Positions 13,294 to 32,250 of a DNA stretch of 64,000 bases are shown piece after piece. Positions within the stretch are counted from its first letter, which is position 1. Each line of letters opens with the position of its first letter. Under the pieces are notes generated by a model. That model made no database searches. It saw nothing but the letters and a program-made list of their open reading frames with translations, and had not been told where the DNA came from. Source of the stretch: the human T2T-CHM13v2.0 reference genome, Homo sapiens; assembly GCF_009914755.1 (NCBI RefSeq), contig NC_060942.1; one strand, 5' to 3'. Both the position numbers and the translations under genes were made by a program.

Positions 13294-13831
13294 CAGGGGG
13301 ACTCCTTCAGGAGACCGGTCCCCCGTCCTCGCCCTCACTCTGTGAGGAGATCCACCTATGACCTCGGGTCCTCAGACCAACCAACCCAAGGAACATCTCA
13401 CCAATTTCAAATCGGGTAAGTGGTCTTTTCACTCTTCTCCAGCCTCTCTCGCTACCCTTCAGTCTTCCTCTCTCGCTACCCTTCAATCTCCCTGTCCTTC
13501 CAATTCCAGTTCTTTTTCCTCTCTAGTAGAGACAAAAGAGACACATTTTATCTGTGGACCCAAAACTCCGGTGCTGGTCACAGACTTGGGAAGACAGTCT
13601 TCGCTTGGTGTTTAATCACTGTGGGGATGCCTGCCTGATTATTCACCCGCATTTCATTGGTGTCTGATCACCGCAGGAATGCCTGCCTTCATCATTCACC
13701 CATATTCCCTTGGTGGCAAATCAATTGCAGGGACGTCTGCTTTGGCTGCTCACCCACATTGCAGCCCAGGGCTGCTCACCCACCCCCTTCTCCATGTCTC
13801 TACCCTTGTCTTTAAACTTGCCTCCTTCACT

Positions 13832-15413
13832 ATGGGCAACCTTCCACCCTCCATTCCTCCTTCTTCTCCCTTAGCCTGTGTTTGCAAGAACTTAAAATCT
13901 CTTCAACTCTCACCTGACCTAAAGTCTAAGCATCTTATTTTCTTCTGCAATACCACTTGGCCCCAATACAAACTTGACAGTAGTTCCGAGTGGCCAGAGA
14001 ATGGCACTTTCAATTTGTCTATCCTACAAGATCTAGATAATTTTTGTCGAAAAATGGGCAGATGGTCTGAGGTGCCTGACGTCCAGGCATTCTTTTACAT
14101 GTCGGTCCCTCCCTAGTCTCTGCTCCCAATGTGACTCGTCCCAAATCTTTCTTCTTTCTCTCCTGTCTGTTCCTTCAATCTCCACCCCAAGCTCTGAGTC
14201 CTTTGAATCCTTTTCTATGGACTCATCTGACCTCTCCCCTTCTCCCCAGGCTGCTGCCAGGTCCCGGTTCTTCCTCAGCCTCTGCTCCCCAATCCTATAA
14301 TCCTTCTATCACCTCCCCTCCCAACACCCAGGCCTGGCTTACAGTTTCGTTTTGCGACTAGCCCTCCCCCACCTGCCCAACAATTTCCTCTTGGAGAGGT
14401 GGCTGGAGCTGAAGGCATAGTCAGGGTACATGTGCCTTTTTCTCTATCAGACCTCTCTCAGATCAGTCAGCATTTAGGCTCCTTCTCATCAGACCCCACT
14501 AAATATATGCAGGAATTCTGATATCTAACTCTGTCCTACAATTTAACCTAGAGTTACTTAAATGTCATCCTAACTTCTACCCCCTCCCCAGATGAATGGG
14601 AAAGAGTTTTTTCTCTAGCCCAATCTCACACTGACAACCGCCGGCTTCATGAGCCAGACCTCCAGGAAGGCATTAGAGCAGTTCCCTGAGAAGATCCCCA
14701 ATGGAACTATCAGGCAGATTCCCCAGGTATAGCTAGGCGAGATTACATGGTTTCCCGCCTAGTTGAAGGGCTTAAAAAGGCAGCTTACAAAGCTGTTAAT
14801 TATGACAAACTTAAAGAAACTACCCAAGGTAAAGATGAAAACCCAGCCCAGTTCATGGCCCGCTTAGTGGCAACCTTAGATGCTTTACCACCCTAGACCC
14901 AGAGGGGCCAGAAGGCCGCCTTATTCTTAATATGCATTTTATCACCCAGTCAGCTCCTGACTTTAGAAAAAAGCTTCAAAAATTAGATTCTAGCCCTCAA
15001 ACCCCGCAACAGGACCTAATTAGCCTCACCTTCAAGGTGTACAATAATAGAGTAGAGGCAGCCAAGTTTCAACTATTTCTGAGTTGCAATTACGTGCCTC
15101 CACTGTGAGAGAAACCCCAGCCACATCTCCAGCACACAGGAACTTCAAAACGTCTGAACTGCAGTGGTCAGGCGTTCCTCCAGGACCAACTTACCCAGGA
15201 TTTTGCTTCAAGTGCCGGAAATCTGGCCACTGGGCCAAGGAATGCCCCTAGCCTGGGATTCCTCCTAAGCTGTGTCCCATCTGTGCGGGACCCCACTGGA
15301 AATCGGACTGTTCAACTCACCTGGCAGCCACTTCCAGAGCCCCTGGAACTCTGGCCCAAGGCTCTCTGACTGACTCCTTCCCAGATCTTCTCGGCTTAGT
15401 GGCTGAAGACTGA
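13832..15413 (+). pseudogene. HERV-H gag remnant (matrix start, capsid region, two CCHC zinc knuckles)
   Basis: ATG GGC AAC (MGNLPPSIPPSSPLAC) at 13832; CFKCRKSGHWAKEC at 15204-15245 and CPICAGPHWKSDC at 15273-15311; multiple stops and frameshifts. Confidence 0.88.
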
Positions 15414-15453
15414 CGCTGCCCGATCGCCTTGGAAGCCCCCTAGACCATCACGG

Positions 15454-28960: not shown

Positions 28961-30539
28961 GGGATGAAAGGGAGGTTTTTGTTTTCCTTTTGAAGATGGG
29001 AATAACTACCTTTTCATCTTATTTCCCCCCCCCCACCGCCTGCCCCCCACCACCCATGCTCCAGCTCCATAGGTCTTTCCTTTCTTTGGTTCTGCCTCAT
29101 TCACTGTTCCCAGTCCACGCTTTTTCCTAAATCTTTGAATGGCTCACTTCTTTTCATTATTCATGGCTCTGCTCAAATGTCACTTCATCCAAAAATTCTT
29201 CTCTGAGCTTATTCTTCTCCTCATTGCCATTTACTGTTTTATCTTCTTCATGGCTCTGATTATCTGAAATGATTTTGTTCATTTGTTTATGGATTGATTA
29301 CATGTATCTTCCTTTTGTTTGTTGTTTGTTTTTGAGACAGAGTCTCGCTCTGTTACCCACGATGGAGTGTAGTGGCATGGTCTCGGCTCACTGCAACCTC
29401 CACCTCTTGGGTGCAAGTGGTTCTCCTGCCTCAGCCTCCCAAGTAGCTGGGACTACACGCATGTGCCACCACACCTGGCTAATTTTTGTATTTTTAGTAC
29501 AAAAATTTTTACTAAAGAAATGTATTTCTAGTAGAGACGGGGTTTCACTATGTTGGCCAGGCTGGTCTTGAACTCCTGACCTTGTGATCCACCTGCCTCG
29601 GCCTCCCAAATTGCTGGGATTTCAGGCGTGAGCCACTGCACCCAGCCTGTTTTGGTTTTTTGAGACAGGGTCTCCCTCTGTTGCCCAGGCTGGAGTGCAG
29701 TGGCATGATCTCGGCTCACTGCAGCCTCCACCTTTCCGGTTCAAGCGATTCTTGTGCCTCAGCCTCCTAAGTAGCTCACACCCAGCTAAGTTTTGTATTT
29801 TTAGTAGAGACAGGGTTTCACCATGTTGGCCAGGCTGGTCTCAAACTCCTGACCTCAGGTGATCTGTCCTTCTTGCCTCCCAAAGTGCTGGGATTACAGG
29901 CGTGAGCCACTGCCCCGGCTTGGTTTGTTTTTTGAGACATGGTCTCACTCTGTCGCACAGGACGGAGTGCAGTAGTGTGATCTTGGCTCCCGTGCTCAAG
30001 TGATCCTCCCACCTCAGCCTCCCAAAGTGCTGAAATTACAGGCGTGAGCCACGGTACCCGGCCTATATCTCCTAATTAAAAGTAAAGCCTGGGTGAAGTT
30101 TATGGCCTGCTAAATACGTACATGTATTATATGCGTTATTATATCCCATGTGTTATATTATATATTATTGTATATGTGTATTATATACTATGTACTATTC
30201 TTACAACTGTATGTGAATCTATAATTATCTCAAAATAAAGTTTTGTTTTTGTTTTTTAAAGTAAGTTCTGTGAGAACTGGGATTTTGTTTGCTTGTTGAC
30301 GATTGTGTCTTCATCACTAGAACCGAGTCTGGCGTGCAGTGGGCACTAAATAAGTCTTCGTAAAAAGTGTAAATTAACGCCCGGCTAATTTTTGTATTAT
30401 TAGCAGCGACGGGGTTTCACCATGTTGGCCAGGCTGGTCTCGAACTCCTGCCCTCAAGCAGGAGTTTCAAGCCCGCCTCGGCCTCCCAAAGTGTTGGAAT
30501 TACAGGCGTGGGCCACCGCGCCTGGCTGATCATGTTTAA

Positions 30540-32250
30540 AGGGCGGGGTGGGGAGCGTACAAACAACAGAGGAAATCCTGAGCCGCAGAGGAAACTGGAG
30601 ATGGCAGGGTTTAGCACTAGAATCTCTGTAGGAGAGGTAAGATTGGAATCCTAATCTCCAGGACTCTTTCCACTACCCAGGCTATCTCTCCATTAATGGA
30701 CTATTGATTGGATGACAGAGTAGCGATAGCACCGTCTTAGGAGACGCCCAATCATAGGTCATAGGTCATTTTTGCAGCTTATTGTGATGACAACAGTGGA
30801 GGATGGTCTTCCACTTCACCTTAAAAGCGGCTGTTCTCTGATTATCATTAAGCATGGCCACGCCCGCACTTAACTTCTGACAGTGGGGAAAGCAGCTGTG
30901 TGTGATAGCTTGGAAGGTTTACTGCTGCCTCAAGTCCTCTTCTCTGCAGTTGAGGTTTCAGGTTTCAATCCTCCCAATACCACAAGACAGAGCACGGGGC
31001 GGCTGCCGCCTCCGCCTCCGCGCCTTAACCTAGGCGGCTTGCCGAAGATCTCAGCCCCGCGGCCGCGCGCTCGCCCTGCCCTAGACCAGGGTTGGGCGCA
31101 GCGGCGGAGGTGGCTTCTGGGCTGCGCGAGCTGGGAGAGCTGGGAGGCGGCGATCGCAGCTGGGCCGGGACTTCCTTCCTCCACCGCACGGCAACAAAAC
31201 AACCCTGCGGCAGGCACTGAGTGCTTCGCAGCTGTCTGGGCGAGAGGCACAGCGATGGGCTCCGTGCTGAGCACCGACAGCGGCAAATCGGCGCCCGCCT
31301 CTGCCACCGCGCGGGCCCTGGAGCGCAGGAGGGACCCGGAGTTGCCCGTCACGTCCTTCGACTGCGCCGTGTGCCTTGAGGTGTTACACCAGCCTGTCCG
31401 GACCCGCTGTGGCCACGTGTAAGTTCCAGGGGAGCTCGGTTTGCGCCCACCCCTAAGGAGGGCGATGTGGGGAAGCTGAGGGCATGGTGTGGGGAAGGAG
31501 GGGGACGGAAGACAGCCTCTTAGGAAATTGCTGCAGGGAGAAACCTGGACCCGTCGGATGCAGGACCACGGGGAAAACGCGGGTCGGAAGGTGACACAGG
31601 ATTTCGGGAGGAGAAAAAATAAACAAGCGGGTCCTGTAGCCCCCTTGCGCTTTCAGCTCCCGAAGCCCAGGTGCGGAACTCCAGAGAAGGGGATCCAGGC
31701 ACGGGTCCCGCCCAGAGCCAGGGCTCGCCAACTGGGGAGGGTGCTCTTGGCTGGAGAACCAGCGCTCGCCCAGGCACGGAAAGGAAACGAGCTCCAGCTA
31801 CAAGGCAGGGGCTCCCGCAAAGCGCAGTTACCCCGCTGAACACGGTAGAACGGGCTGCGCTTCCCTCTGCCCCAGAAACCCGGGTCCGTTTTGTTTTGCT
31901 GGAGCTGTGCACGTGTTCCCAGAATGCCCACAGAGGCTCGTCTTAAGCAAACAAGGATCTGTGCAAAGTGTCTTTCCACCCCCACCCCTGCTACCCTTTC
32001 CCAACACAGACACCCAGCCCCTCAAAGGGCAAGTCAAACTGGAGCTTCCGAGTGACTTTCCACAGTTGTTAGAGTTTAACAACCTGCTAGGGTGGGGCTT
32101 GGACGTTAGCCGCCAAGCCCCTGAATGTACTCCTTCAAAACCCAGCCACAACGTAACAGGAGGTGGCAGGCTACCTGCTTTACGCACGGTCTCTCCAAAC
32201 CGGCGGAAATTACAGAGTAAAATAACTTTCTCAAAACCGCATAGTACTTA
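30540..32250 (+). promoter_or_regulatory. RNF125: RNF125 promoter / CpG island spanning the 5' UTR, exon 1 and the start of intron 1
   Basis: Dense undepleted CpG and high GC from about 30990 to 31900. GC box GGGCGGGG at 30541 and CCAAT/ATTGG boxes near 30642, 30707 and 30748. The exact TSS cannot be read from sequence. Confidence 0.85.
31255..31418 (+). CDS. RNF125: RNF125 coding exon 1 (codons 1-54 plus 2 nt): N-myristoylation motif MGSVLS and first half of the C3HC4 RING
   Basis: ATG at 31255 in strong Kozak context (gcgATGG). Translates [55 protein letters not shown], recognised as the RNF125 N-terminus. Donor GT|GTAAGT at 31418/31419. Confidence 0.97.

What the first reader, a model, noticed from the sequence alone, without database searches (positions are those of the whole stretch)
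13358..31418. Possible HERV-H-driven RNF125 transcript, with an in-frame 121-aa N-terminal extension
Seen: the HERV-H leader has a consensus donor TCGG|GTAAGT (13415/13416). A strong acceptor CCTCTTCTCTGCAG|T lies at 30949/30950, with a yUnAy branch-point candidate (TTTAC) about 28 nt upstream, just 5' of the RNF125 CpG island on the same strand. The only ATG in the predicted viral leader exon is at 13358. It gives 19 codons (MTSGPQTNQPKEHLTNFKS) plus one G, and G+TT at 30950 restores the stop-free frame that runs 102 codons into the RNF125 ATG (31255), with no ATG in between. Established: HERV-H LTR7 promoters are active in pluripotent cells and some tumours and splice from this donor into host genes, and RNF125 is myristoylated on Gly2. 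Inference: one 17.5-kb splice could yield normal RNF125 by leaky scanning (13358 has a weak Kozak, cctATGa) and an extended, non-myristoylatable form, placing a negative regulator of RIG-I/MDA5 under retroviral control. The frame match has a 1-in-3 chance probability.
Basis: partly seen in the sequence, partly recalled or inferred. Interest (0 to 1): 0.8.

Follow-up and report, generated by a model that had tools for sequence, protein, structure and literature searches.

The report
Old HERV-H provirus upstream of RNF125
A defective, already catalogued HERV-H provirus sits upstream of RNF125, and its splice donor could on paper join in frame to the gene, but nothing examined shows that such an RNA exists.

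Summary
Every coordinate and the arithmetic of the observation hold. ATG 13358, the donor at 13415/13416 and the acceptor-like AG at 30949/30950 give 121 stop-free codons into the RNF125 ATG at 31255.

The object is a 5,799-bp defective HERV-H provirus on the + strand (12810-18608). It has flanking 5-bp repeats and broken gag, protease, RNase H and env remnants. Its LTRs differ by 6.3%. It is already listed in a published hg38 table, where the 5' LTR is LTR7B/LTR7Y, not the ESC-active LTR7up.

The pieces of the proposal are individually ordinary:
- The donor is a family feature, kept in 28 of 29 other copies. The ATG is present in only 14 of those 29.
- 39 of 1,245 AGs in the interval are at least as pyrimidine-rich as 30949.
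- 16.5% of composition-matched shuffles keep the frame open.

No RefSeq transcript, retrocopy or paper found links the provirus to RNF125 (hub table). No RNA data could be examined, so the chimeric transcript remains an untested, low-prior hypothesis. One point in its favour is that the 3' LTR has lost its poly(A) signal.

The parts
12805..12809 (+). Left target-site repeat GTTCG
   Evidence: It matches GTTCA at 18609-18613 in 4 of 5 positions.
12810..13273 (+). 5' LTR, 464 bp (TG...CA). LTR7B by RepeatMasker, LTR7Y in Carter et al.'s re-annotation.
   Evidence: The hg38 entry chr18:32000483-32000946 + appears in the PMC8912925 supplements.
12978..13076 (+). 31-nt tandem repeat in U3: 3.2 copies here against 2.3 in the 3' LTR
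13135..13140 (+). TATAAG, the presumed TATA box. The start site is inferred at about 13160-13166.
   Evidence: The start site is an inference from the usual TATA-to-start spacing.
13209..13214 (+). AATAAA poly(A) hexamer of the 5' LTR
13276..13293 (+). Primer-binding-site-like stretch beginning TGGTGCCG, directly after the LTR
   Evidence: Its likeness to tRNA-His is recalled, not tested.
13358..13415 (+). Leader ATG plus 19 codons and one base, up to the donor
   Evidence: The ATG column reads ATG in 14 of 29 other copies.
13413..13421 (+). Leader splice donor CGG|GTAAGT
   Evidence: GT is kept in 28 of 29 other copies.
13274..18261 (+). Internal proviral region with broken gag (MA, p30), protease, RNase H and env remnants
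18262..18608 (+). 3' LTR, 347 bp. It lacks the 85 nt that in the 5' LTR (13133-13217) hold the TATA box, the start site and AATAAA.
18609..18613 (+). Right target-site repeat GTTCA
30918..30949 (+). Candidate branch point TTTAC, pyrimidine tract and CAG acceptor. An AG also lies at 30933-30934, between the two.
30950..31254 (+). 305 nt upstream of the RNF125 ATG. It is stop-free in the RNF125 frame and has no ATG. The frame closes at TAA 30871.
30900..31900 (.). CpG island of the RNF125 promoter (approximate limits)
31216..31418 (+). RNF125 exon 1 (coding from 31255), with donor ACGT|GTAAGT at 31418/31419
   Evidence: Hub annotation

Best explanation
The region holds an ordinary, defective HERV-H provirus (12810-18608, + strand) that inserted roughly 14-32 million years ago, 12.6 kb upstream of the RNF125 start site. 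RNF125 is transcribed from its own CpG-island promoter.

The provirus keeps the strong leader splice donor that nearly all copies of the family carry. Its leader ATG sits at a position that varies among copies. The acceptor-like AG at 30949 is one of several dozen comparable sites downstream of the donor. The open frame upstream of the RNF125 ATG is what a 67% G+C CpG island gives fairly often.

The in-frame match is therefore most likely a coincidence. If a HERV-H-to-RNF125 RNA forms at all, it is expected to be rare splicing noise, seen where LTR7B/7Y LTRs fire (8-cell, morula, epiblast) rather than in primed ESC or iPSC.

Shown: the anatomy, the family comparison and the chance estimates. 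Inferred: that no regular chimeric mRNA or extended protein is made.
For: Provirus anatomy:
- Direct LTR pair.
- Flanking repeats GTTCG and GTTCA.
- Pfam matches in retroviral order on the + strand, in separate broken frames: Gag_MA (E 4e-4, below the cut-off), Gag_p30 (5.5e-8), RVP (6.6e-8), RNase_H (2.4e-11, and a second frame at 3.8e-5 just below the cut-off) and TLV_coat (4.9e-5).
- LTR divergence of 21 mismatches in 347 ungapped sites, K2P 0.063.
- Already listed in a published table as LTR7B/LTR7Y, not LTR7up, with that paper's stage assignments.

Family comparison (the 29 other copies given loci out of 40 scored and 1,010 first-look candidates):
- GT donor kept in 28 of 29.
- The ATG column reads ATG in 14, ACG in 6, ACA in 6, GTG in 2 and ACC in 1.
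- 12 of 29 carry the same open '19 codons plus 1' leader.

Acceptor: of 1,245 AGs in 13450-31254, 39 including the target have at least 14 of 18 upstream pyrimidines, a pyrimidine at -3 and no AG in the 12 nt before. 22 of the 39 lie inside the provirus.

Frame: 16.5% of 5,000 shuffles are stop-free. A 240-codon stop-free frame also lies on the opposite strand of the same island, at 30930-31652. The upstream frame has no Pfam match at E up to 1 and is rich in Ala, Pro, Arg and Gly.

No supporting record:
- The RefSeq table has no upstream RNF125 exon.
- 0 papers hold RNF125 with HERVH or with LTR7, and 1 irrelevant paper holds it with HERV-H. 19 papers hold RNF125 with 'HERV'; none of the 15 listed titles concerns such a transcript.
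- RNF125 is absent from the held supplement text of three TE-chimera or embryo-isoform papers.
- There is no second copy of 30950-31418 in the genome, so no retrocopy fossil of a chimeric mRNA.
Against: - The sequence is fully compatible with the proposed splice.
- The donor matches 8 of 9 consensus positions (the consensus is recalled) and has GTAAGT, which only 8 of the 29 other copies have.
- By the crude pyrimidine measure the acceptor (14 of 18) is at least as good as the three constitutive RNF125 acceptors in the window, which score 11, 12 and 13. It is the only such site within the open stretch 30874-31254.
- Requiring no ATG as well brings the shuffle frequency down to 3.0%.
- The 3' LTR has lost its AATAAA, and no AATAAA or ATTAAA lies between 17806 and 20140. 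Transcripts from the 5' LTR are therefore not stopped at the usual place.
- The 5' LTR keeps its TATA box.
- No RNA data were examined, the held supplement files were small or partial, and the paper reader closed before further tables could be searched. The absence of evidence is therefore weak.
Confidence: 0.75

Rival explanations
1. The 5' LTR fires, and the leader donor (13415) splices over 17.5 kb to the acceptor at 30950. The mRNA then gives normal RNF125 by leaky scanning, plus a 121-residue-longer form that cannot be myristoylated.
For: - The coordinates, phase and open frame are confirmed.
- The leader ATG has a weak context and the RNF125 ATG a strong one.
- The donor is strong and the acceptor is at least as pyrimidine-rich as the real RNF125 acceptors.
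- The 3' LTR has no poly(A) hexamer.
- The N-terminus MGSVLS fits the recalled myristoylation pattern. RNF125 and 'myristoylation' occur together in 10 papers (listing only).
Against: - There is no RefSeq model and no paper.
- The LTR is 7B/7Y, not 7up.
- The same review says chimeras typically join to exon 2, not to a cryptic site upstream of exon 1.
- 38 other comparable AGs compete, 22 of them inside the provirus.
- An AG at 30933-30934 lies between the proposed branch point and the acceptor.
- The extension has no domain match and has the composition of translated GC-rich DNA.
- No retrocopy exists.
Confidence: 0.06
2. The provirus is transcribed in some embryonic or tumour settings but yields only non-coding products. 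These would be internally spliced or read-through HERV-H RNA ending at hexamers from 20140 onward, or a splice to RNF125 exon 2 that is out of frame.
For: - 22 acceptor-like sites lie inside the provirus.
- The 3' LTR lacks AATAAA, and the next hexamers are at 20140, 20343 and 20587.
- The review says exon 2 is the usual target.
- The leader ATG joined to exon 2 (49523) meets a stop 10 codons after the junction.
- LTR7B and 7Y families are expressed at the 8-cell, morula and epiblast stages.
Against: There is no RefSeq lncRNA model on the provirus (hub table). No locus-level expression data were seen. The locus is absent from supplementary file 1 of PMC8912925, which lists regulatory marks per LTR7 insertion.
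Confidence: 0.12
3. The provirus matters for RNF125 not through splicing but as a distal regulatory element, such as an enhancer or a boundary, in early embryonic cells.
For: The review passages state that HERVH loci can act as enhancers, and that about 50 highly transcribed ones form domain boundaries. The provirus lies 12.6 kb from the promoter on the same strand.
Against: The RefSeq functional-element rows for the window place enhancers and silencers at 30538-32283 and 60770-61512, and none on the provirus (hub table). Boundary activity is tied to highly transcribed, LTR7up-type copies. Nothing here tests it.
Confidence: 0.07

Closest known systems
HERV-H (LTR7-family) proviruses of the common deleted form
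   Same: - Paired LTRs with 5-bp flanking repeats.
- A leader with a GTAAG donor about 140 nt after the 5' LTR.
- gag, protease, RNase H and env remnants in order, all broken.
- Listed as such in PMC8912925 supplementary file 2.
   Different: - The 3' LTR lacks 85 nt, including the TATA box, the start site and AATAAA.
- The 5' LTR has one extra 31-nt U3 repeat unit.
- The two LTRs are assigned to different subfamilies in the re-annotation: 7Y against 7o/7B.
HERV-H LTR-driven chimeric host transcripts. The review passages name HERVH-CALB1 and the lncRNAs ESRG and lncROR; LTR7-PLAAT4 was seen as a title only.
   Same: An LTR promoter and leader donor lie upstream of a host gene on the same strand. 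On paper the viral exon could replace the host's first-exon start.
   Different: - Those cases rest on RNA evidence, and this one has none.
- They typically join to an annotated exon 2 acceptor. This proposal needs an unannotated acceptor 267 nt upstream of the host start site.
- The LTR here is not the ESC-active LTR7up type.
N-terminally extended proteoforms from upstream in-frame start codons
   Same: An upstream AUG in weak context stands in frame with a strong main AUG, with no stop between them.
   Different: The extension would be read mostly from promoter DNA. It has no domain match and a GC-driven composition. No translation or conservation evidence could be obtained.

Membership tests
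HERV-H provirus | Two LTRs in direct orientation bounded by a short target-site repeat | tested here: met
   LTRs at 12810-13273 and 18262-18608. They show 92% identity over 236 nt and 21 mismatches in 347 ungapped sites. The flanks are GTTCG and GTTCA.
HERV-H provirus | LTRs of the LTR7 group | tested here: met
   Taken from a published annotation, not from a classification of my own. The PMC8912925 supplements list chr18:32000483-32006280 + as LTR7B (RepeatMasker) and as LTR7Y and LTR7o in the re-annotation. The length of 5,798 bp matches the 5,799 bp found here.
HERV-H provirus | Retroviral genes in the order gag, pro, pol, env between the LTRs | tested here: met
   Pfam matches to Gag_MA (below the cut-off), Gag_p30, RVP, RNase_H and TLV_coat, in that order on the + strand and in separate broken frames. 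No reverse transcriptase or integrase match was seen among the 10 frames scanned.
HERV-H provirus | Primer-binding site for tRNA-His | not tested
   A stretch beginning TGGTGCCG follows the 5' LTR. Its likeness to tRNA-His is recalled and was not aligned here.
HERV-H provirus | Many related copies in the genome | tested here: met
   The leader 13300-13460 gave 1,010 first-look candidates. 40 were scored, and the 39 other than the locus itself are 89-94% identical to it.
LTR-initiated chimeric host-gene transcript | LTR upstream of the host gene on the same strand, with promoter elements | tested here: met
   The 5' LTR is on the + strand, with TATAAG at 13135 and AATAAA at 13209. RNF125 is on the + strand, starting at 31216 (hub table).
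LTR-initiated chimeric host-gene transcript | Usable splice donor in the viral leader | tested here: met
   At sequence level only: CGG|GTAAGT. GT is kept in 28 of 29 other copies.
LTR-initiated chimeric host-gene transcript | RNA evidence of a junction between a viral exon and a host exon | not testable with these tools
   No RNA data are reachable. The RefSeq table shows no such exon. Literature and supplement searches found none. No retrocopy exists.
LTR-initiated chimeric host-gene transcript | Shown transcriptional activity of this LTR in some cell type | not testable with these tools
N-terminally extended proteoform | Upstream start codon in frame with no stop before the main start | tested here: met
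   121 stop-free codons after the in-silico join. 16.5% of shuffles do the same for the 102 host-side codons.
N-terminally extended proteoform | Signs that the extension is coding (domain, conservation, translation) | tested here: inconclusive
   No Pfam match at E up to 1. The composition is Ala 16, Pro 14, Arg 11 and Gly 10 of 101 residues. Conservation and translation could not be tested.

The most novel reading that the evidence does not exclude
An LTR7B/7Y-type HERV-H provirus whose 3' LTR has lost its poly(A) signal supplies an embryonic promoter and first exon to RNF125 at the 8-cell, morula or epiblast stage, in naive stem cells or in tumours. The splice from 13415 to 30950 would add 121 residues in front of Gly2. 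That would block myristoylation and put a brake on RIG-I/MDA5 signalling under retroviral control at stages when endogenous retroviral RNA is abundant.
Probability: 0.05. Interest if true: 0.55.

Novelty: already known. Interest (0 to 1): 0.2.

Why it matters
If the chimeric RNA existed, it would be one more case of an LTR promoter captured by a host gene. It would have a neat twist: an innate-immunity E3 ligase would lose its membrane anchor through a virus-derived start codon.

As things stand, the provirus is an already listed, ordinary HERV-H copy and the join is a paper construct. The useful outcome is a sharper test. The LTR subtype says to look in 8-cell, morula, epiblast and naive cells rather than in primed ESC or iPSC. 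The exon 2 join (13415|49523) should be sought alongside the proposed one.

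Tried and rejected
- Literature. One search was badly framed, because min_terms 2 did not force RNF125, and it gave nothing on the gene.
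- Supplements. RNF125 was sought in the held supplement text of three papers, with 0 occurrences in each: PMC10616205 (5 files, 92,838 characters), PMC12999487 (2 files) and PMC12587700 (1 file, 4,398 characters). The held files are small or partial, so this is weak evidence.
- Papers not reached. The papers I recalled under PubMed ids 25317556 and 25658370 (Wang et al. 2014 and Goke et al. 2015) are not held. Paper reading closed, before a further hPSC transcript table could be searched. Their supplements may bear on the claim.
- Splice scoring. MaxEntScan and SpliceAI are not available, so I used only a crude pyrimidine count. It does not separate real sites from decoys well: the true RNF125 acceptors score below the candidate. 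It can show only that the site is not unique, not that it is weak.
- Retrocopy fossil. A search for one found only the locus itself.
- Rfam. The scan of the window gave only three Alu-type SRP matches outside the region.
- Rejected reading. I considered whether the open frame marks a real longer RNF125 coding region. The shuffles, the 240-codon open antisense frame and the lack of any domain speak against it.

Full report
**1. The observation**

Reading the window confirms every stated place.
- The ATG is at 13358, in the context CCACCTATGA.
- The donor TCGG|GTAAGT is at 13415/13416.
- The acceptor-like CTCTTCTCTGCAG|T is at 30949/30950. TTTAC lies at 30918-30922.
- The RNF125 ATG is at 31255, in the strong context ACAGCGATGG.

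From ATG to donor is 58 nt. The stretch 30950-31254 is 305 nt. Joined in silico, they read 121 codons without a stop into the RNF125 start. No ATG lies in 30950-31254. In 13100-13415 the only other ATG, at 13146, sits 11 nt after the TATAAG at 13135, so it is probably upstream of the start site (inference). Upstream of the acceptor, the RNF125 frame closes at TAA 30871.

**2. What the object is**

A direct repeat pair and its alignment define a 5' LTR at 12810-13273 (464 bp) and a 3' LTR at 18262-18608 (347 bp). The flanks are GTTCG and GTTCA.

Between the LTRs, stop-to-stop frames on the + strand match Pfam families in retroviral order and in separate broken frames:
- Gag_MA (weak, below the cut-off)
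- Gag_p30
- the retroviral protease
- RNase H (in two frames)
- an env remnant

The LTRs differ at 21 of 347 ungapped sites (K2P 0.063). That is about 14-32 million years at 2.3e-9 to 1e-9 substitutions per site per year (the rates are recalled).

The leader is a multi-copy family feature. The genome search gave 1,010 first-look candidates, of which 40 were scored; the 39 other than the locus itself are 89-94% identical to it.

The locus is already in print as an annotation row. The supplements of Carter et al. 2022 (PMC8912925) list hg38 chr18:32000483-32006280 on the + strand. The 5' LTR is called LTR7B by RepeatMasker and LTR7Y in their re-annotation. The 3' LTR is called LTR7o/LTR7B (passages seen). 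The locus is not in their supplementary file 1, which lists regulatory marks per LTR7 insertion.

**3. Two peculiarities of this copy**

The 3' LTR lacks 85 nt that in the 5' LTR (13133-13217) hold the TATA box, the presumed start site and AATAAA. No AATAAA or ATTAAA lies between 17806 and 20140. Transcripts from the 5' LTR would therefore not be polyadenylated at the usual place. This slightly favours downstream read-through.

The 5' LTR also has one more unit of a 31-nt U3 repeat than the 3' LTR.

**4. How special are the pieces of the proposal?**

*Donor.* Among the 29 other copies given loci:
- 28 keep GT at the donor, 8 as GTAAGT and 20 as GTAAGC; 1 has lost it.
- 28 of 29 keep the 58-nt spacing.
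The donor is thus a family trait, not a property of this locus.

*ATG.* The same column reads ATG in 14, ACG in 6, ACA in 6, GTG in 2 and ACC in 1 of the 29. This spread, ACG beside both of its transition products, is what a CpG site gives. 12 of 29 carry the same open '19 codons plus 1' leader.

*Acceptor.*
- Of 1,245 AG dinucleotides on the + strand in 13450-31254, 39 including the target have at least 14 of 18 upstream pyrimidines, a pyrimidine at -3 and an AG-free 12 nt. 22 of these lie inside the provirus.
- That is about one per 457 nt. The chance of at least one in the 381-nt open stretch before the ATG is therefore about 0.56 (my arithmetic).
- The measure is crude. The three constitutive RNF125 acceptors in the window score 11, 12 and 13, below the candidate's 14. 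The site is therefore plausible but not unique.
- An AG at 30933-30934 lies between the proposed branch point and the acceptor.

*Frame.*
- In 5,000 dinucleotide-preserving shuffles of the 305 nt (GC 0.675), 16.5% are stop-free in the needed frame, 19.1% have no ATG and 3.0% have both.
- With the 1-in-3 phase match, an open in-frame join has a chance of about 5.5%, or about 1% with the absence of an ATG added.
- The opposite strand of the same island holds a 240-codon stop-free frame at 30930-31652. This shows how readily the composition gives open frames.
- The 101 host-side residues have no Pfam match at E up to 1. They are rich in Ala, Pro, Arg and Gly.

**5. Evidence on whether the RNA exists**

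No RNA data can be reached with these tools.
- The RefSeq table supplied with the finding shows no RNF125 exon upstream of 31216, and no lncRNA or functional element on the provirus.
- Full-text searches found 0 papers with RNF125 and HERVH, 1 irrelevant paper with HERV-H, and 0 with LTR7.
- 19 papers hold RNF125 with 'HERV'. None of the 15 listed titles concerns such a transcript.
- No relevant paper links RNF125 with naive or primed pluripotency, or with the 8-cell stage (listings only).
- RNF125 does not occur in the held supplement text of three papers on TE chimeras or embryo isoforms. Those files are small or partial.
- The genome holds no second copy of 30950-31418, so there is no retrocopy that could preserve a germline chimeric mRNA. 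This is a weak negative.

**6. Bearing of the LTR subtype**

The right places to look are earlier embryonic stages and naive-type cells.

[quoted passage not shown] It also says these typically bridge to exon 2. For RNF125 that join is out of frame: the leader frame stops 10 codons into exon 2. It would also drop the start codon and the first half of the RING, which exon 1 encodes.

**7. Verdict**

The most likely account (0.75) is an ordinary, already catalogued, defective HERV-H provirus near a gene that has its own CpG-island promoter. The in-frame match is a coincidence of a family-wide donor, a variable ATG, one of many acceptor-like sites and a GC-rich open frame.

The rivals are:
- non-coding or out-of-frame HERV-H transcripts (0.12);
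- a distal regulatory role (0.07).

Myristoylation of RNF125 on Gly2 is recalled. Only the co-occurrence of the two terms in 10 papers was seen (listing). The N-terminus MGSVLS read fits the recalled motif.

If the chimera were real, it would be a new member of a known kind, the LTR-driven host transcripts.

Noticed in passing
window 18262-18608, junction near 18553, against 13133-13217: The 3' LTR has an 85-nt deletion that removes the TATA box, the presumed start site and the AATAAA hexamer. CCT occurs at both edges. No poly(A) hexamer lies on the + strand between 17806 and 20140.
   Followed up: partly
window 12978-13076 and 18427-18497: A 31-nt tandem repeat in U3 has 3.2 copies in the 5' LTR and 2.3 in the 3' LTR. 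One unit was therefore gained or lost after insertion.
   Followed up: partly
window 13358-13360, compared with loci L002-L030: The leader ATG lies in a column that reads ATG, ACG, ACA, GTG or ACC among 29 other copies. This looks like a decaying CpG site, so about half of the close copies carry a leader start codon and half do not.
   Followed up: yes
window 30930-31652, - strand: A 240-codon stop-free frame lies on the strand opposite to RNF125 exon 1, across the CpG island. It is most likely a composition effect.
   Followed up: no
window 21930-22193: A long (TTTC)n-type pyrimidine microsatellite on the + strand ends in an acceptor-like TATAG at 22198, with 17 of 18 upstream pyrimidines. 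This is among the most pyrimidine-rich AG sites between the provirus and RNF125.
   Followed up: no
window 13443-13493 and 13605-13723: Two short tandem repeats, with periods of 24 and 53 nt, lie in the proviral leader just downstream of the donor.
   Followed up: no
window 37787-37903 (+), 48280-48396 (+), 52698-52845 (-): Three matches to the Rfam SRP RNA model score just above the gathering score. I read them as Alu elements in RNF125 introns, not SRP genes.
   Followed up: no
window 11725-11995, 12189-12453, 19623-19893: Alu-like repeats, 81-88% alike, flank the provirus on both sides.
   Followed up: no
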